32,000 nt of DNA from Mycoplasmoides pneumoniae FH. GTDB lineage: Bacteria > Bacillota_I > Bacilli_A > Mycoplasmatales > Mycoplasmoidaceae. The translations under genes were made by a program, and so were the position numbers. The notes beneath the pieces were generated by a model, which was not told the origin of the DNA, ran no database searches, and was given only the letters and a program-made list of their open reading frames with translations. Positions within the stretch are counted from its first letter, which is position 1, and the number at the start of each line of letters is the position of its first letter. The stretch spans positions 150,803 to 182,802 of the forward strand of contig NZ_CP010546.1 in NCBI RefSeq assembly GCF_001272835.1. Direction: 5' to 3'. This document shows positions 13,426 to 27,534 of the stretch, in pieces.

Positions 13426-13474
13426 GGGAGTAGGAAAGCAGGCTTTCAACACAAGTTTTCGTTTTCCTGCTCCC
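13426..13474 (+). other. Strong imperfect hairpin inside a degenerate, inverted copy of the leader module
   Basis: GGGAGTAGGAAA (13426-13437) pairs with TTTCCTGCTCCC (13463-13474). This gives 12 bp with one U-G pair on the plus-strand RNA. The flanking CCCACTAAATAAATTG resembles CTCCACTAAATAAATTG of the module at 26680-26696. Confidence 0.5.
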
Positions 13475-13648
13475 ACTAAATAAATTGGGAAAGGTTTTCA
13501 AAGTCGCCAAAAAGATTAAATATTTTTGGAATTTTGAATTTTTAGTTGCTTCTAATTGTTAATAGAGATTTACTTTCAAAAAAACTTTTTGGTTTATTTT
13601 TGGTGTCTTTACTAACTTAAAGCAATTTAGTTAGTGTAAAGACTCATA

Positions 13649-14464
13649 ATGTTTAAATTAAAAATTAACAACTTCCAATTAGGTTTCAAACTCGTTCAGT
13701 GACCAGTGACGAACCACCTTCTTAAACATTTTTACGTTTTTCCAATCAATAATAAAGGAGGTCTTGCCATTAAACGCATAATTTCACTTGCTTTGTTTAA
13801 GAAAAGACTTAACAAAGATAAGATTAATAATTGTCATGTTTGGGAAGAAGAGTTACCTGATGGTAGCTACGACATGGGATTTAATGGCAATTTCAACCAT
13901 ATGGAAAAACGAAAAAGTGGTTATGTTACCCAAAAGCAGTTTAGCGAGTTCAAAGATGCCAACAATCAGCGTCTCATAAAGATTGAAACTACTTTGGCTA
14001 TCCAAGGCGAACAAATCAACAAATTGACTCAAACTGTTGAAAAGCAAGGCGAACAAATCAATCAATTAGTTCAAGTTGTGCTTCTTCAGGGCGAGCAAAT
14101 TAGAGAACTTCAAGTGGAGCAAAAAGCACAAAGACAAGAGTTTAATGCCCGCATGGATCGTTTGGAAAATCTTTTGGTGGAAAGTATAGAATCTACCAAT
14201 AATCGCTTCGACTCTATGGAAAGACGTTTAGACTCTATGGATAGTCGTCTTGATTCTATGGAAAATCGCTTGGTTTCAATGGAAAGCCGTCTTGATTCTA
14301 TGGAAAATCGCTTAGATTCAATGGAAGGTCGTCTTGATTCTATGGAAAATCGCTTAGATTCAATGGAAGGTTGTCTTGATTTTGTTGAAGGACGCTTAGA
14401 CTCTATGGAAACTCGTTTAGACTCTATGGAAACTCGCCTGGACAAAGTCGATCCGCCCAAATAG
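13649..14464 (+). CDS. DUF16 (UPF0134) family coiled-coil protein, 271 aa
   Basis: ATG 13649 reads through TGA 13700-13702 into track ORF 13706..14464. The C-terminal half carries QGEQI repeats, then 11 RLDSMEx heptads, and ends RLDKVDPPK. That ending is shared with the two minus-strand paralogs at 25981 and 26793. Confidence 0.85.
14204..14434 (+). repeat. Tandem 21-nt (heptad) repeat, 11 units, in-frame within the DUF16 gene
   Basis: There are eleven consecutive 21-nt units of the form CGY YTW GAY TCW ATG GAA NNN, encoding R(L/F)DSME(x). I counted them unit by unit from 14204. A partial 12th unit leads to the stop. Confidence 0.9.
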
Positions 14465-14485
14465 TTTTTAGTTAAAAAATAAGGG

Positions 14486-14525
14486 TATCAGCAGTTAATC
14501 TTAAAGATTAGTTGCTGGTATTTTT
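14486..14525 (+). terminator. Rho-independent terminator after the DUF16 gene
   Basis: TATCAGCAGTTAATC (14486-14500) pairs with GATTAGTTGCTGGTA (14506-14520), giving 15 bp including 3 G-U pairs and a TTAAA loop. TTTTT follows at 14521-14525. Confidence 0.7.
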
Positions 14526-14548: not shown

Positions 14549-14720
14549 CTTTTTGTCAATTTTGTTGGCACTTCTAAATTGCTAGTTCAATTTATTAAGT
14601 GGAGGAGCAAAATGCAAATCTTTAATTTTTGAAATTGATCAGTAAAAAATCTGATCACCGTTGGTAGCATTGCTGCAAATAGTAGTTATGTAATTTGCAA
14701 ACAGAAAGGAATTTTTCAAT
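14549..14720 (+). promoter_or_regulatory. Leader module copy A (RepMP1-type upstream element)
   Basis: The conserved block is CTTTTTG..TTTGTTGGCACTTCT..TAGTGGAGGAGCAAAATGCAAATCTTTAATTTTTGAAATTGATCAG-N8-CTGATC...GTTGG...TTGCAA...TAGTTA. It recurs at 18072-18253 (+), 26557-26734 (-) and, diverged, at 27285-27437 (-). Confidence 0.7.
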
Positions 14721-14728
14721 ATGAGTAA
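14612..14728 (+). CDS. Candidate leader peptide A, 38 aa (MQIFNFWNWSVKNLITVGSIAANSSYVICKQKGIFQYE)
   Basis: GGAGG lies 7 nt upstream of ATG 14612. The ORF has two in-frame TGA codons (14630, 14636), and its TAA stop at 14726-14728 overlaps the downstream ATG 14721. Homologous ORFs of identical length occur in copies B and C. Confidence 0.45.
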
Positions 14729-15002
14729 TACAAAAAAATTAAGAATAACTTCAATCGAAGAAACAATAGAAATAATAGTTAATTCAAAACTATTAGCTTT
14801 TGGTTTTTACCCAGTTGGTTTAGAAGATGGAACTTACGAACTTAATGTAAGGATTATTTTTAAAGAAAAAACTGCAGATTCTGAGAAGAGTAGCAGTGTA
14901 CATCCTTTACAAAAGGAGTATTATGTAAGGGAATTTTTGAGATTTCTTGAGCGCCATAAAGATTCTCTGGCGCAACAACTATTAGTAGTAGAAGACAATT
15001 AA
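14721..15002 (+). CDS. Small hypothetical protein, 93 aa (paralog of 18254..18460)
   Basis: ATG 14721 has AAAGGA upstream, and the frame is clean to TAA 15000-15002. An ungapped core is shared with the 68-aa ORF: Y...EDGT.E....I......AD.E.....PL. Confidence 0.6.
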   Translation: MSNTKKLRITSIEETIEIIVNSKLLAFGFYPVGLEDGTYELNVRIIFKEKTADSEKSSSVHPLQKEYYVREFLRFLERHKDSLAQQLLVVEDN

Positions 15003-17906: not shown

Positions 17907-18071
17907 TAGGCTTTTTACTTTCCAAAAGTTTTAAAGTTGTTTTGGCACTTTCAAACTTTAAAGACCATTTAAAAGGCATAAAAGGATAGTTATGTCTTTA
18001 AGAAATATTTTGCGATTCAGTTCGCTTTTGGTTTTATTTGGTTTTGAGTCTTTTCTAGTTAATGCTCAAAT

Positions 18072-18253
18072 CTTTTTGCAAAGTTTGTTGTCACTTCTAA
18101 ATAACCTACTCAATGTATTTAGTGGAGGAACAAAATGCAAATCTTTAATTTTTGAAATTGATCAGCAAAGCGTCTGATCCCTGTTGGCAACCGAGTTGCA
18201 AGTGTTAGTTATTTTTTAAAAAATCAAAAGAAAAAAGAAAGGAACATTTAAAC
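18072..18253 (+). promoter_or_regulatory. Leader module copy B
   Basis: It carries the same conserved block as copy A: TTTGTTGTCACTTCT...TAGTGGAGGAACAAAATGCAAATCTTTAATTTTTGAAATTGATCAG-N8-CTGATC... Confidence 0.7.
18135..18251 (+). CDS. Candidate leader peptide B, 38 aa (MQIFNFWNWSAKRLIPVGNRVASVSYFLKNQKKKERNI)
   Basis: GGAGG lies upstream of ATG 18135. There are two in-frame TGA codons (18153, 18159). TAA 18249-18251 sits 2 nt before the downstream ATG 18254. The ORF is exactly 117 nt, like copies A and C. Confidence 0.45.
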
Positions 18254-18460
18254 ATGAAAAAAGTTAAAGCATTAAGGAATCTTTTTTTAGAAAAAGCCAG
18301 TGAAAAACTTGAATACCCCAAAATTGCTTCAATGGTAGCTTACTTTGATCCAAAGGAAGATGGTACTTGTGAATTCATTATGAAAATTAAAACTGTCAAT
18401 GAAGTTGCTGACACTGAGACGACAAATAAGGAAAAGCCTTTAGGCACTTGAAAGAGTTAG
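18254..18460 (+). CDS. Small hypothetical protein, 68 aa (paralog of 14721..15002)
   Basis: ATG 18254 reads through TGA 18449-18451 to TAG 18458-18460. The EDGT core is shared with the 93-aa ORF. Confidence 0.55.
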
Positions 18461-25980: not shown

Positions 25981-26556
25981 CTATTTGGGTGGATCGATTT
26001 TGTCTAAGCGAGTTTCCATTGAATCCAAGCGATTTTCCATAGAGTCTAAACGTCCTTCAACAGAATCAAGGCAACCTTCTATTGAATCCAAGCGATTTTC
26101 CATAGAATCAAGACGACTATCCATAGAGTCTAGACGACCTTCAATAGAGTCGAAGCGTTTATTGGTGGATTCTATACTTTCAACCAAAAGGTTTTCCAAA
26201 CGATCCATGCGGGCGTTAAACTCTTGTCTTTGCGCTTTTTGCTCCACTTGAAGTTCTCTAATTTGCTCGCCCTGGATTCTTATTTGTTCACCTTGGGCAG
26301 CCAAAGTGGTTTCAATCTTTATGAGTCGTTGGTCGTTTGAGTCTTTGTACTCGTTAAACTCTTTGCGCGTTACGTATTCCGTGTTCACTGGTATAACCGG
26401 TTTGTTAAGTTTAAATTGTCTATTGAAATTGCCAGAGAATTCCACACTTTTGTTTTCTGGATTAATGATGTATCAGCCCGAAAAAGTGCCCTTTTTGGTC
26501 TTTTTCATCATCTCGTTAAATTCCTTTTCGTTATAAAACGGAATTTTCTCTTTCAT
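25981..26556 (-). CDS. DUF16 (UPF0134) family coiled-coil protein, 191 aa
   Basis: Track ORF 25981..26445 extends upstream through TGA 26481-26479 to ATG 26556, with AAAGGAG upstream. The N-terminus is [42 protein letters not shown].... The C-terminus has 7 RLDSMEx heptads followed by RLDKIDPPK. Confidence 0.85.
26011..26157 (-). repeat. Tandem 21-nt heptad repeat, 7 units
   Basis: The units encode [42 protein letters not shown] and RLDSMET. The unit is the same as at 14204-14434 but the copy number is lower. Confidence 0.85.
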
Positions 26557-26672
26557 TAATAAGCGACTCCTTTCTTTTCAGTGAAATTTAAAAAGTAACT
26601 ACTACTTGCAACTCAGTTGCCAACAGGGATCAGACCATTTACTGATCAATTTAAAAAATAAAAGATTTGCAT
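26556..26672 (-). CDS. Candidate leader peptide C, 38 aa (MQIFYFLNWSVNGLIPVGNWVASSSYFLNFTEKKGVAY)
   Basis: GGAGGAGCAAA precedes ATG 26672. There are two in-frame TGA codons. TAA 26558-26556 overlaps the DUF16 ATG (TAATG). The ORF is exactly 117 nt. Confidence 0.45.
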
Positions 26673-26734
26673 TTTGCTCCTCCACTAAATAAATTGACCG
26701 GCTTATTGAGAAGTGCCAACAAAATTGCAAAAAA
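26557..26734 (-). promoter_or_regulatory. Leader module copy C
   Basis: The reverse complement reads TTTTTTGCAATTTTGTTGGCACTTCTC...CAATTTATTTAGTGGAGGAGCAAAATGCAAATCTTTTATTTTTTAAATTGATCAG-N8-CTGATCCCTGTTGGCAAC... Confidence 0.7.
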
Positions 26735-26746
26735 TTTCAAATGAAT

Positions 26747-26783
26747 AAAAATACCAATAGCAATTTAGCCATTGGTATTTTTT
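26747..26783 (-). terminator. Bidirectional-type terminator hairpin after the second minus-strand DUF16 gene
   Basis: ATACCAAT (26751-26758) pairs with ATTGGTAT (26771-26778), a perfect 8 bp with a 12-nt loop. A5 lies on the left and T6 on the right. Confidence 0.7.
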
Positions 26784-26792
26784 AGTCTACAG

Positions 26793-27284
26793 TTATTTAG
26801 GCGGATCGATTTTGTCTAAACGAGTTTCTATTACGTCGAGGCGTTTACCAAAATCAGTCAAAGTGTTTCCGATTGATTCTAGACTTTTAAGCACAAGACT
26901 TTCAAAGCGATCCATGCGGGCGTTCATTGCTTCACCCTGGGTTTTGATTTGTTGACTCTGAACCATAACAACTTCAGTTAGTCGATCAACTTTGTCCTCA
27001 ACAACTTGAATCCTTTGACCCTGACTCTTTAACTCAGTTTCAATCTTTGTAAGTTTTTGGTCGTTTGAGTCTTTGTACTCGTTAAATTCTTTACGCGTTA
27101 CGTATTCTGTGTTCACTGGTATAACTGGTTTGTTAAGTTTAAATTGTCTGTTGAAACTGCCAGAGAATTCCACACTGTTGTTATTTTTATTGATGATGTA
27201 TCAACCCGAAAAAGTGCCCTTTTTGGTCTTTTTCACCATGTCATGGAATTCTTTTTCGTTATAAAACGGAATTTTCTCTTTCAT
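26793..27284 (-). CDS. DUF16 (UPF0134) family coiled-coil protein, 163 aa (diverged; no RLDSME array)
   Basis: Track ORF 26793..27173 extends through TGA 27209-27207 to ATG 27284. The N-terminus [42 protein letters not shown]... is near-identical to the 25981 gene. It ends ...[16 protein letters not shown]. Confidence 0.85.
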
Positions 27285-27370
27285 TAAGCAATAACTCCTT
27301 TCTGATTAAAGCGGTTCAAAAAACTACTACTTACAACTCTTTGTCATTGGACTTTTCAAAATTTGATCAT
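27284..27370 (-). CDS. Candidate leader peptide D, 28 aa (MIKFWKVQWQRVVSSSFLNRFNQKGVIA)
   Basis: AAGGAGC lies 10 nt upstream of ATG 27370. There are two in-frame TGA codons. TAA 27286-27284 overlaps the DUF16 ATG (TAATG). The 3' half aligns to leader C with a single 3-nt, in-frame indel. Confidence 0.4.
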
Positions 27371-27437
27371 TGTTTTAATGCTCCTTACTAACTAAATTGA
27401 CCCGCTTCATAAAAACTGCCAACCAAGTTCAAAAAAG
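27285..27437 (-). promoter_or_regulatory. Leader module copy D (diverged)
   Basis: The reverse complement reads CTTTTTTGAACTTGGTTGGCAGTTTTT...GTCAATTTAGTTAGTAAGGAGCATTAAAACAATGATCAAATTTTGAAAAG.... The layout matches copies A-C but the sequence is diverged and the GATCAG hairpin is missing. Confidence 0.5.
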
Positions 27438-27534
27438 TTTTTAAGCTATTTTTGCACCAAAATGGCGTTGTCAGTCAAACTACGACAACAACAGTTGCTG
27501 TTTGATTCTTTAAACTTAAACAGAATTAGCACCA

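What the first reader, a model, noticed from the sequence alone, without database searches (positions are those of the whole stretch)
14549..14728. Four-copy leader module: a strong Shine-Dalgarno site plus a short UGA-containing ORF that always ends on the downstream start codon
A conserved element of about 150-180 nt precedes four genes. These are the 93-aa ORF (module 14549-14720), the 68-aa ORF (18072-18253) and two DUF16 genes (26557-26734 and 27285-27437, minus strand). Each copy contains GGAGG or AAGGAG followed by an ATG-initiated ORF.

- Copies A, B and C are each exactly 117 nt (38 aa), although their 3' halves are strongly diverged.
- They begin MQIF(N/Y)F(W/L)NWS and share LI(T/P)VG and S(S/V)SY.
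- Copy D is 28 aa. Its 3' half aligns to copy C with one 3-nt, frame-preserving indel.

Every leader stop sits at the downstream start: an 8-nt overlap in A, a 2-nt gap in B, and TAATG in C and D. An open frame kept in AT-rich DNA across four diverged copies, together with this stop/start geometry, suggests a translated leader that delivers ribosomes to the downstream gene. From general knowledge, canonical SD sites are uncommon in this organism, so GGAGG here stands out. The repeat itself is probably part of the described RepMP1 family. I am not aware that the leader ORF has been described.
Basis: partly seen in the sequence, partly recalled or inferred. Interest (0 to 1): 0.7.

Follow-up and report, generated by a model that had tools for sequence, protein, structure and literature searches.

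The report
Repeated short-ORF leader before Mycoplasma genes
A repeated 5' cassette in Mycoplasma pneumoniae puts a short upstream reading frame, of no conserved peptide sequence, in front of about twenty DUF16 and small-protein genes, laid out as this bacterium lays out translationally coupled gene pairs; its parts are already catalogued, and its function is untested.

Summary
The window is M. pneumoniae, type 2 and FH-like, read with UGA as Trp. All four leader ORFs exist as described: 38, 38, 38 and 28 codons.

I recovered about 20 distinct genomic copies. Every copy has an ATG-started ORF running from just after the published short repeat sRepB to the downstream start.
- 13 of 20 end on the start codon (TAATG or ATTAA).
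- 4 end between -2 and +23 nt.
- 2 run on into the gene.
- 1 (MPN127, in this window) is fused in frame.

The peptide is not conserved: pN/pS is 1.13. The frame stays open only modestly more than neutral drift predicts (P about 0.03-0.06). GGAGG is present in only about half the copies. The invariant signal is a second Shine-Dalgarno site, 8-14 nt complementary to the 16S tail, inside the leader's 3' end. Two 5-bp hairpins inside the leader show compensatory changes.

Best reading: a first mini-cistron coupled to the main gene by termination-reinitiation. This is inferred, not shown.

The parts are already catalogued: sRepB, hypothetical proteins in strain FH, and smORF lists with Ribo-seq or ProTInSeq flags for two copies. 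The family-level reading appears undescribed.

The parts
14481..14525 (+). Intrinsic-terminator-like hairpin plus T-run ending the upstream DUF16 gene (MPN127). It marks the start of a new expression unit before copy A.
   Evidence: stem of up to 20 pairs followed by a T-run. 3 such sites found against 0.3 expected in shuffles.
14549..14605 (+). Copy A, 5' half. It is equivalent to the published short repeat sRepB of the RepMP1 mosaic and ends in SD1, GGAGG, at 14601-14605.
   Evidence: The sRepB coordinates in PMC3472980 Table 3 map onto the homologous 5' halves of copies C and D. Alignments. SD1.
14612..14728 (+). Leader ORF A, 38 codons plus stop. It overlaps the downstream start by 8 nt.
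   Evidence: It has no internal stop, against 2 and 4 stops in the other two frames.
14636..14657 (+). Hairpin HP1 inside the leader ORF: TGATCAG-N8-CTGATCA.
   Evidence: RNAalifold predicts it, and 3 of its 7 pairs show changes on both sides across 11 copies.
14664..14676 (+). Hairpin HP2 inside the leader ORF: GTAGC-ATT-GCTGC.
   Evidence: 94% of cells are paired. The fourth pair alternates A-U (6 copies) and G-C (5 copies) and is never unpaired.
14703..14710 (+). SD2, AGAAAGGA, 10 nt before the downstream ATG and inside the leader ORF's 3' end.
   Evidence: 8-14 nt of perfect complementarity to the 16S 3' tail GGATCACCTCCTTTCTA in all 19 copies scored.
14721..15002 (+). Downstream 93-aa ORF. 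It belongs to a small-protein family with the 68-, 84- and 88-aa ORFs.
   Evidence: No Pfam match. Listed as mpneu10820 with ProTInSeq and RanSEPs flags.
18072..18128 (+). Copy B, sRepB half with SD1 at 18124-18128. The crossover of the type-2 mpn130 deletion lies at 18116-18129.
   Evidence: the first 87 nt are identical to the type-1 copy upstream of MPN130 and the last 175 nt to the type-1 copy upstream of the 68-aa ORF. Agrees with PMC3472980.
18135..18251 (+). Leader ORF B, 38 codons. Contains HP1 (18159-18179), HP2 (18187-18199) and SD2 (18236-18243). Its stop is 2 nt before the 68-aa ORF at 18254.
   Evidence: Annotated in strain FH as ADK87000.1.
26683..26737 (-). Copy C, sRepB half, listed in the literature as 'downstream of MPN139'. 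SD1 is at 26679-26683. The MPN139 terminator hairpin lies at 26747-26782.
   Evidence: with the coordinate offset taken from MPN139..
26556..26672 (-). Leader ORF C, 38 codons. Contains HP1 (26628-26648), HP2 (26608-26620) and SD2 (26567-26575). TAATG junction with mpn138/7.
   Evidence: Annotated as MPNE_0162 / BAL21711.1 and called on 451 contigs.
27387..27442 (-). Copy D, sRepB half, listed in the literature as 'upstream of MPN139'. SD1, AAGGAG, is at 27381-27386.
27284..27370 (-). Leader ORF D, 28 codons. HP1 is deleted. An HP2-like stem (ACAA/TTGT) lies at 27333-27344 and SD2 at 27295-27303. TAATG junction with MPN139.
13580..13790 (+). An sRepB copy is followed by a leader of another sequence type ([12 protein letters not shown]...), which here is fused in frame to MPN127. 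SD2-like AATAAAGGAGGT starts at 13751.
   Evidence: The MPN151 paralogue keeps a separate 41-codon leader ending CAT TAA over an ATT start. The window copy differs by a 1-nt indel.

Best explanation
The module is the 5' expression cassette of the RepMP1 mosaic. In order it holds:
1. the terminator of the preceding gene;
2. the published short repeat sRepB;
3. in about half of the copies, a canonical SD (SD1);
4. a short upstream ORF of 28-42 codons whose amino-acid sequence is free to drift;
5. two small conserved hairpins inside that ORF;
6. an exceptionally long SD (SD2, AGAAAGGAGG..., 8-14 nt complementary to the 16S tail) embedded in the ORF's last codons;
7. the main start codon, usually overlapping the leader stop (TAATG, or ATTAA where the main start is ATT).

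Proposed mechanism. Ribosomes load at the leader AUG, either through SD1 or through this organism's tolerance for SD-less initiation at the first AUG of a transcript. They translate through the hairpins and terminate on or next to the main start while SD2 sits in the position it would hold in an initiation complex. They then reinitiate there, or hand over to SD2-driven initiation. The leader would thus act as a first mini-cistron coupled to the main gene.

Shown: the anatomy, its recurrence in about 20 copies, the lack of peptide constraint, the hairpin covariation and the SD complementarity.

From the literature: SD plus TAATG is enriched at coupled internal cistrons in M. pneumoniae, and two copies carry translation flags.

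Inferred: that the leader is translated in most copies, that the open frame is selected, and that main-gene output depends on it. The promoter and transcription start site were not located.
For: - An ATG-started ORF is open in all copies, with 0 internal stops against 1-3 and 2-4 in the other two frames.
- This holds across at least five leader sequence types whose middles barely align: MQIF..., MLFINK/MPLINK..., MKTNKKYAFA..., MITLEKLNSW..., [12 protein letters not shown]....
- Leader stop relative to the main start: TAATG or ATTAA in 13 of 20 copies, and -2 to +23 nt in 4 more.
- Where the ancestral ATG is lost (MPN094 and MPN145 copies), an in-frame ATG sits two codons downstream.
- Three well-aligned indels inside the ORF are 3, 3 and 21 nt.
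- Neutral simulation on the copy tree gives P(all open) = 0.061 for 9 copies over 25 codons and 0.028 for 6 copies over the whole ORF.
- SD2 is 8-14 nt complementary to the 16S tail in 19 of 19 copies, with a gap of 5-10 nt (8-10 nt in 17 of 19). SD1 is 5-7 nt complementary in 10 of the 19 sequences scored, and a weaker 4-nt GGAG in one more.
- PMC10568206: SD is found in 8.1% of genes, 3.2% of leading genes and 28% of TAATG junctions. The authors link SD plus TAATG to termination-reinitiation.
- PMC10920889: the MPN037 leader (mpneu19790) is flagged by Ribo-seq with RCV 5.06. The ORF derived from the leader downstream of MPN104 (mpneu10646) is flagged by ProTInSeq. The paper also states that the first ATG of an RNA initiates without an SD.
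- Terminator hairpins lie directly upstream of copies A and C.
Against: - Statistical support for selection on the open frame is weak: P is about 0.03-0.06, the two tests overlap, and a dinucleotide shuffle of a single copy yields such an ORF in 7-35% of cases.
- About half of the inferred indels shift the frame: 7 nt in copy B/H, and 1 nt each in A, D and the MPN204 copy.
- Two copies run more than 100 nt into the main gene out of frame, and one is fused.
- SD1 is missing in about half of the copies.
- SD2 is strong enough for independent initiation, so coupling may be unnecessary.
- Weber et al. report that SD strength did not predict translation efficiency.
- Only 2 leaders appear in the curated SEP list. 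Leaders A, C, D and G are absent, and the Ribo-seq data lack frame periodicity.
- Most TAATG junctions are inherited with the RepMP1 core flank and are not independent events.
Confidence: 0.45

Rival explanations
1. Neutral by-product. The cassette (sRepB plus 5' UTR plus SD2) was copied along with the genes by duplication and RepMP1-mediated recombination. The upstream ORF is open through shared descent and chance, is translated at most as noise, and has no effect on the main gene, which initiates on its own very strong SD2.
For: - pN/pS is 1.13 with no third-position excess.
- Frame-shifting indels occur in the 3' third.
- 7-35% of shuffles give such an ORF.
- Neutral simulations reject only at 0.03-0.06.
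- SD1 is lost in about half of the copies and SD2 is invariant.
- The stop position varies, with run-on and fused copies.
- PMC10920889 stresses translational noise in this organism.
Against: - The frame is open in all of about 20 copies, including types with barely alignable middles.
- Replacement ATGs are in frame.
- Three in-ORF indels are multiples of three.
- Simulation expects only 2.9 of 6 and 5.9 of 9 copies to stay open.
Confidence: 0.3
2. The selected feature is RNA structure. The two small hairpins in the 5' leader act in mRNA stability, processing or binding of a regulator, and the reading frame over them is incidental.
For: - On 11 copies, 89.5% of cells pair against 81.5 +/- 1.5 in shuffles (0 of 500 reach the observed value).
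- 5 pairs change on both sides against 2.2 +/- 1.0 (4 of 500).
- Slid controls pair in only 12-44% of cells.
- RNAalifold independently predicts the same two stems, with 4 of 10 pairs compensatory.
Against: - The stems are only 5-7 bp and AU-rich. The consensus energy is -6.5 kcal/mol, and whole-leader folds are no better than shuffles in 4 of 6 cases.
- HP1 is deleted in copy D, and both hairpins are deleted in the copy downstream of MPN104. The F, M, L and R leader types lack them.
- The A-U to G-C swap in HP2 may be a single inherited event.
- No Rfam family matches.
- This reading does not exclude the coupling model, since the hairpins lie inside the ORF.
Confidence: 0.15
3. The leader ORFs encode a real family of about 38-aa small proteins, as the FH annotation ('conserved domain protein', hypothetical proteins) would suggest.
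For: They are called as genes in several assemblies and annotated in FH as MPNE_0041, 0162, 0174, 0428, 0619 and ADK87000.1. A motif is shared: (W/K)S(V/I/A)K.LI.VG...A.SS(Y/F).
Against: - pN/pS is 1.13, and variable columns by codon position are 15/22/15.
- C-terminal thirds are read in different frames in different copies.
- N-termini are non-homologous between types.
- No Pfam match and no homologue beyond the same locus.
- RanSEPs flag is 0 for mpneu19790.
Confidence: 0.04
4. A classical leader-peptide attenuator, in which ribosome position on the leader selects between terminator and antiterminator hairpins.
For: A short leader ORF with two hairpins, tandem UGA (Trp) codons in some copies, and a T-rich stretch after HP2.
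Against: - No terminator-like site lies between the leader and the gene. The only ones are upstream of the cassette.
- There are no alternative pairings.
- The Trp codons are not conserved: there are none in the G, O, J, P and F types.
- HP2 is not followed directly by a U-run.
Confidence: 0.03

Closest known systems
SD-assisted TAATG stop/start overlaps between operon genes in M. pneumoniae (termination-reinitiation coupling; Weber et al. 2023, PMC10568206; general mechanism in Huber et al. 2019, cited there)
   Same: A stop overlaps the start as TAATG, with an SD a few nucleotides upstream inside the preceding ORF. This is the class in which that paper finds the highest SD frequency (28%).
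   Different: Here the upstream cistron is a 28-42 codon ORF with no amino-acid constraint, sitting in a repeated cassette at the head of the transcription unit. It is not a conserved protein gene. Coupling has not been measured for any of these pairs.
sRepB / RepMP1 mosaic of M. pneumoniae (Forsyth and Geary 1996; Musatovova et al. 2008; PMC3472980)
   Same: The 5' half of every copy is sRepB by position. It is intergenic, adjacent to RepMP1/DUF16 genes, and mediates the type-2 mpn130 deletion, whose junction is copy B.
   Different: sRepB as published is 55-72 nt and stops at SD1. The leader ORF, hairpins and SD2 lie outside it. The 2012 paper treats sReps as recombination substrates and does not mention promoter, SD or ORF. 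The 1996 and 2008 papers could not be read.
Bacterial regulatory uORFs acting by coupling or RBS occlusion (for example S. meliloti uRBS study PMC13285730; Salmonella Mg2+-transporter intergenic uORF PMC8092293)
   Same: A short upstream ORF with its own SD and AUG, whose translation would set ribosome access to the main start.
   Different: Those cases were tested experimentally and are single loci. The Salmonella case works by unfolding an RBS-sequestering structure. Here SD2 sequestration is not general: mean z is -0.34, and it is significant only for the MPN151 leader. I compared with these papers from their abstracts only.
smORF catalogues of M. pneumoniae (RanSEPs PMC6385055; ProTInSeq PMC10920889) and the FH genome annotation
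   Same: Individual leader ORFs are listed: mpneu19790, mpneu03205, mpneu10646, and MPNE_0041/0162/0174/0428/0619.
   Different: They are listed one by one as putative small proteins. They are not recognised as paralogous leaders of one cassette. ProTInSeq states that upstream regulatory smORFs are 'not described in MPN'.

Membership tests
RepMP1 mosaic / sRepB short repeat | Sequence corresponds to published sRepB copies, at positions in intergenic regions flanking RepMP1/DUF16 genes | tested here: met
   Table 3 of PMC3472980 gives 179019-179073 and 179723-179778. With the MPN139 offset these map to window 26683-26737 and 27387-27442, the 5' halves of copies C and D. nhmmer finds the segment next to DUF16 genes in all loci.
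RepMP1 mosaic / sRepB short repeat | Restricted to M. pneumoniae | tested here: met
   The gapped pattern scan of 185,579 species genomes returned 25 single hits in unrelated taxa, none similar by nhmmer. All DUF16 relatives that carry a source name are named M. pneumoniae. Caveat: M. pneumoniae itself is absent from that collection.
Translationally coupled cistron pair (termination-reinitiation) | Upstream stop overlaps or lies within a few nt of the downstream start | tested here: met
   TAATG or ATTAA in 13 of 20 copies and -2 to +23 nt in 4 more. 2 copies run on and 1 is fused.
Translationally coupled cistron pair (termination-reinitiation) | SD for the downstream gene located inside the upstream ORF at initiation distance | tested here: met
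   SD2 has 8-14 nt complementarity to the 16S tail and a gap of 5-10 nt (8-10 nt in 17 of 19 copies), in 19 of 19 copies.
Translationally coupled cistron pair (termination-reinitiation) | Upstream ORF is translated | tested here: inconclusive
   Published flags exist for 2 copies only: Ribo-seq RCV 5.06, just over the threshold of 5, and ProTInSeq for mpneu10646. Leaders A, C, D and G are not in the curated list.
Translationally coupled cistron pair (termination-reinitiation) | Downstream translation depends on upstream translation | not testable with these tools
   Needs reporter mutagenesis in M. pneumoniae.
Leader-peptide transcription attenuator | Intrinsic terminator between leader ORF and structural gene, with alternative antiterminator pairing | tested here: not met
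   Terminator-like sites occur only upstream of the cassette. The consensus fold shows two independent small hairpins.
Leader-peptide transcription attenuator | Conserved regulatory codons in the leader | tested here: not met
   Trp (UGA) codons are present in some copies and absent in the G, O, J, P and F types. pN/pS is 1.13.
Functional small protein (SEP) family | Purifying selection on the amino-acid sequence | tested here: not met
   pN/pS is 1.13 in the leader frame, against 0.90 and 0.60 in the other frames. Variable columns by codon position are 15/22/15.
Described structured RNA family (Rfam) | Match to a curated covariance model | tested here: not met
   No family reaches its gathering score on the module. 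Only weak matches fall on the upstream terminator hairpin.

The most novel reading that the evidence does not exclude
The cassette is a family-wide translational control device. A sequence-free upstream ORF carrying two covarying hairpins, followed by an unusually long SD, would make the output of about 25 DUF16 and small-protein genes depend on ribosome traffic over the leader. That would give a bacterium with very few transcription factors a shared post-transcriptional switch for its largest paralogous gene family. Copies that lost SD1, run on, or are fused would then be tuned or silenced variants.
Probability: 0.15. Interest if true: 0.7.

Novelty: new member of a known kind. Interest (0 to 1): 0.42.

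Why it matters
M. pneumoniae is a reference organism for whole-cell and quantitative models. SD sites are rare there, and upstream regulatory smORFs are stated to be undescribed.

If the cassette works as proposed, it would be the first uORF-type leader in this species. It would explain why the DUF16 genes look like internal cistrons (SD plus TAATG) although each follows a terminator. It would also link the RepMP1 recombination repeats to gene expression and not only to sequence variation.

The practical consequences for annotation hold whatever the mechanism:
- About 20 hypothetical 34-42-aa proteins are better labelled as leader ORFs.
- MPN127 in type-2 strains is a leader-gene fusion.
- Several family members seem to start at ATT.

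If it is a neutral by-product, the finding is ordinary.

Tried and rejected
1. **SD2 sequestration as a general mechanism.** The idea was an anti-SD-like pyrimidine tract, relieved by leader translation.
   - Pairing probability of SD2 exceeded every shuffle only in the MPN100 (F-type) copy; in the others 12-68% of shuffles did as well.
   - RNAduplex gave a mean z of -0.34 over 18 copies. Only the MPN151 leader, which carries an 8-nt copy of the 16S tail (ACCUCCUU), was significant, with z = -3.2.
   - Rejected as a general feature.
2. **Promoter.**
   - No TAnnnT box sits at a conserved position in sRepB or just upstream.
   - The consensus scan found one unremarkable site in copy A.
   - TSS tables of four papers (PMC4402517, PMC3377991, PMC6721554, PMC4920955) are not held.
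   - The TSS is unresolved.
3. **Genome-contig scan.** The upstream regions of MPN283, 287, 368, 465, 484, 504, 655, 010, 013 and 344 were not examined.
4. **Leader A in published tables.** Look-ups by sequence and by coordinate found nothing.
5. **Homology search with the leader A peptide.** It found only the same locus.
6. **HP1 as a palindromic operator for a DNA-binding protein.** Considered. Symmetric double changes fit an RNA stem better, but this was not tested.
7. **Other readings.** Attenuator, riboswitch or other Rfam family, and real small protein are rejected as set out in the rival explanations.
8. **Earlier RepMP1 papers.** The 1996 and 2008 papers could not be read.
Full report
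**Identity of the window.** The sequence is Mycoplasma pneumoniae, running from infC/rpmI/rplT to the start of the P1 operon, and must be read with UGA as Trp. It is a type-2, FH-like strain.
- It carries the 576-nt mpn138/7 fusion at 25981-26556(-) and lacks mpn130, as PMC3472980 describes for type-2 strains.
- Leader B's exact peptide is on record only from strain FH.

**The observation.** All four leader ORFs exist as described.

| Copy | Coordinates | Codons | Stop relative to downstream start |
|---|---|---|---|
| A | 14612-14728 (+) | 38 | ends 8 nt inside the 93-aa ORF |
| B | 18135-18251 (+) | 38 | 2 nt before the 68-aa ORF |
| C | 26556-26672 (-) | 38 | TAATG with mpn138/7 |
| D | 27284-27370 (-) | 28 | TAATG with MPN139 |

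- GGAGG sits 6 nt before the ATG in A, B and C. AAGGAG sits 10 nt before it in D.
- A, B and C are 80-86% identical over about 145 nt.
- D's N-terminal part is not homologous in frame to C. A 21-nt and a 1-nt deletion are offset by a different ATG.
- The window holds a fifth copy at 13580-13790. There an sRepB copy is followed by a leader of another sequence type, which is fused in frame to MPN127.

**Relation to known repeats.** The 5' half of the module is the published short repeat sRepB of the RepMP1 mosaic.
- The sRepB coordinates in Table 3 of PMC3472980 map, with the MPN139 offset, to window 26683-26737 and 27387-27442. sRepB therefore ends at SD1, and the leader ORF lies outside it.
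- That paper says sRepA and sRepB are exclusively intergenic, next to RepMP1/DUF16 genes, and treats them as recombination substrates. It does not mention promoter, SD or ORF.
- Copy B is the product of such an event. Its first 87 nt equal the type-1 copy upstream of mpn130 and its last 175 nt equal the type-1 copy upstream of the 68-aa ORF. The crossover lies in the shared TATTTAGTGGAGGA at 18116-18129.

**Genome-wide copies.** The species-genome collection lacks M. pneumoniae. I therefore fetched 19 loci through exact-protein look-ups and scanned them with BLASTN and an nhmmer profile. This gave about 20 distinct copies:
- upstream of DUF16 genes MPN037, 094, 100, 127, 130, 137, 138, 139, 145, 151, 204, 410, 501, 524 and 675;
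- upstream of five genes of a small-protein family of 93, 68, 68, 84 and 88 aa. These are mutually related at 25-38% identity (the two 68-aa paralogues are 88% identical) and have no Pfam match.

No copy was found outside M. pneumoniae. The upstream regions of about ten further DUF16 genes were not examined.

**The reading frame.**
- Every copy has an ATG-started ORF beginning shortly after sRepB and free of stops up to the main start. The other two frames hold 1-3 and 2-4 stops.
- This holds across at least five leader types whose middles barely align.
- The stop lies on the start codon (TAATG, or ATTAA where the main gene starts with ATT) in 13 of 20 copies. It lies at -2, +8, +14 and +23 nt in four more. 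Two copies run more than 100 nt into the gene out of frame, and one is fused.
- Amino-acid sequence is not under constraint. Summed over pairs, pN/pS is 1.13 in the leader frame against 0.90 and 0.60 in the other frames. Variable columns by codon position are 15/22/15.
- Indels are mixed. Three well-aligned ones are 3, 3 and 21 nt, but 7-nt and 1-nt indels shift the frame in the 3' third, so the conserved GAAAGGA is read in different frames in B and C.
- Where the ancestral ATG is lost (MPN094, MPN145), an in-frame ATG lies two codons downstream.
- Neutral simulation along the copy tree from a stop-free ancestor gives P(all open) = 0.061 for nine copies over 25 codons (5.9 expected open). For six copies over the whole ORF it gives 0.028 (2.9 expected open).
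- A single copy is not surprising: 7-35% of dinucleotide shuffles give such an ORF.

My reading is that the open frame is modestly better kept than drift predicts. What could be selected is the act or extent of translation, not the peptide.

**Translation signals.** The 16S rRNA ends GGATCACCTCCTTTCTA (L010:13530).
- SD2, AGAAAGGA(GGT(GAT)), is 8-14 nt perfectly complementary to that tail in all 19 copies scored. It lies 5-10 nt before the main start (8-10 nt in 17 of the 19).
- SD1 is 5-7 nt complementary in 10 of the 19 sequences scored, with a weaker 4-nt GGAG in one more, and is absent in the rest.
- In this species only 8.1% of genes have an SD: 3.2% of leading genes, 11.3% of downstream genes and 28% of TAATG junctions. 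Weber et al. propose that an SD enhances termination-reinitiation at such junctions (PMC10568206).
- The DUF16 genes thus carry the signature of internal coupled cistrons, although terminator hairpins precede the cassette and each DUF16 gene carries its own operon number in the ProTInSeq gene table (column read without its header).

**RNA structure.** Two small hairpins lie inside the leader ORF of the MQIF-type and related copies. In copy A they are at 14636-14657 and 14664-14676.
- RNAalifold predicts exactly these two stems, with 4 of 10 pairs compensatory.
- On 11 copies, 89.5% of cells pair against 81.5 +/- 1.5 in shuffles (0 of 500 reach the observed value).
- Five pairs change on both sides against 2.2 +/- 1.0 (4 of 500). 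Slid controls pair in only 12-44% of cells.
- The stems are weak, with a consensus energy of -6.5 kcal/mol, and are missing in several copies and types.
- No Rfam family matches.
- A general SD2-sequestering structure was tested and rejected. Only the MPN151 leader, which contains an 8-nt copy of the 16S tail, shows it.

**Published evidence on translation and annotation.**
- ProTInSeq Supplementary Data 10 lists the MPN037 leader (mpneu19790, 46178-46294(-)) with a Ribo-seq flag. Its RCV is 5.06 against a threshold of 5.
- The same table lists the run-on leader ORF downstream of MPN104 (mpneu10646) with ProTInSeq and RanSEPs flags.
- The other leaders I searched for (MQIF..., MIKFWKVQW..., MLFINKLIKS...) are not in it.
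- RanSEPs lists a further copy at 570322-570438.
- Strain FH annotates six of the leaders as hypothetical proteins or as a 'conserved domain protein'. Leaders C and E are called on about 450 contigs each.
- ProTInSeq states that upstream regulatory smORFs are not described in M. pneumoniae, and that the first ATG of an RNA can initiate without an SD.
- My literature searches found no paper treating these ORFs as a leader family.

**Conclusion.** The best-supported reading, at confidence 0.45, is that the cassette is a mini-bicistron. A short ORF of unconstrained sequence is translated from the 5' end. It terminates on or beside the main start, over a very long SD, and feeds ribosomes to the main gene by termination-reinitiation.

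The main rival, at 0.30, is a neutral by-product of duplication with independent SD2-driven initiation. A structure-centred reading stands at 0.15 and is compatible with either. The small-protein and attenuator readings fail their defining tests.

The promoter and TSS remain unlocated, and dependence of the main gene on the leader is untested.

Noticed in passing
window 13649-14464 (MPN127); compare L017:7560-7830 (MPN151): MPN127 in this strain is a fusion of a cassette leader ORF ([12 protein letters not shown]...) with the DUF16 ORF. The MPN151 paralogue keeps a separate 41-codon leader ending CAT TAA over an ATT start. The two differ by a 1-nt indel after AAAGGAGGTCTT.
   Followed up: partly
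L017:5304, L013:9977, L017:7764; window about 13770: Several family members (the 84-aa ORF, MPN675, MPN151, and the core of MPN127) appear to start at ATT (IKK.../IKR...), 7-8 nt after SD2, where paralogues have ATG. Gene callers instead pick TTG starts or long N-terminal extensions.
   Followed up: partly
window 13456-13518 (-); L008:10882-10944 (-); L009:11735-11806 (-); L011:10778-10839 (-); L015:10806-10866 (-); L016:10797-10866 (-): Isolated sRepB copies in inverted orientation lie a few hundred nt downstream of DUF16 genes and point back towards them. If sRepB carries a promoter they would drive antisense transcription. In the window, an inverted and a direct sRepB copy face away from each other at 13456-13650.
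   Followed up: no
window 18116-18129: The junction of the type-2 deletion of mpn130 lies exactly in the 14-nt TATTTAGTGGAGGA shared by two cassette copies, that is, at SD1.
   Followed up: yes
window 14721-15002, 18254-18460; L008:15635-15901; L017:5304-5552; L010:10682-10888: The 93-, 68-, 88- and 84-aa ORFs form a paralogous small-protein family with no Pfam match. They are not part of the original MPN gene numbering: in the gene table I saw, the numbers MPN128 and MPN129 belong to other ORFs. The 88/90-aa member has MS, ProTInSeq and validation flags in PMC10920889.
   Followed up: partly
window 17992-18219 (+): A 75-codon ORF in another frame runs through sRepB and leader B (MSLRNILRF...NVFSGGTKCKSLIFEIDQQ...). 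It is called as a gene in some assemblies. Similar 83-100-aa ORFs cover the F-type cassettes (mpneu10617: RanSEPs flag, zero Ribo-seq footprints).
   Followed up: partly
window 14168-14461 and 25994-26156: 21-nt tandem repeats (heptad repeats, RLDSMEN-like) lie in the DUF16 coiled-coil regions of MPN127 and mpn138/7. This is the known type-variable repeat number.
   Followed up: no
L017:7707-7714; window 13714-13723: The MPN151 leader contains ACCTCCTT, an 8-nt copy of the 16S rRNA 3' tail, about 40 nt upstream of SD2, and is predicted to pair with it (local z = -2.8). The fused MPN127 copy has a mismatch (CCACCTTCTT).
   Followed up: partly
L011:9806-10040 (MPN204 copy): A 1-nt deletion just before SD2 shifts the leader frame, so that the ORF ends 23 nt inside MPN204 instead of at TAATG. 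This is a natural uncoupled variant that could serve as a comparison.
   Followed up: no
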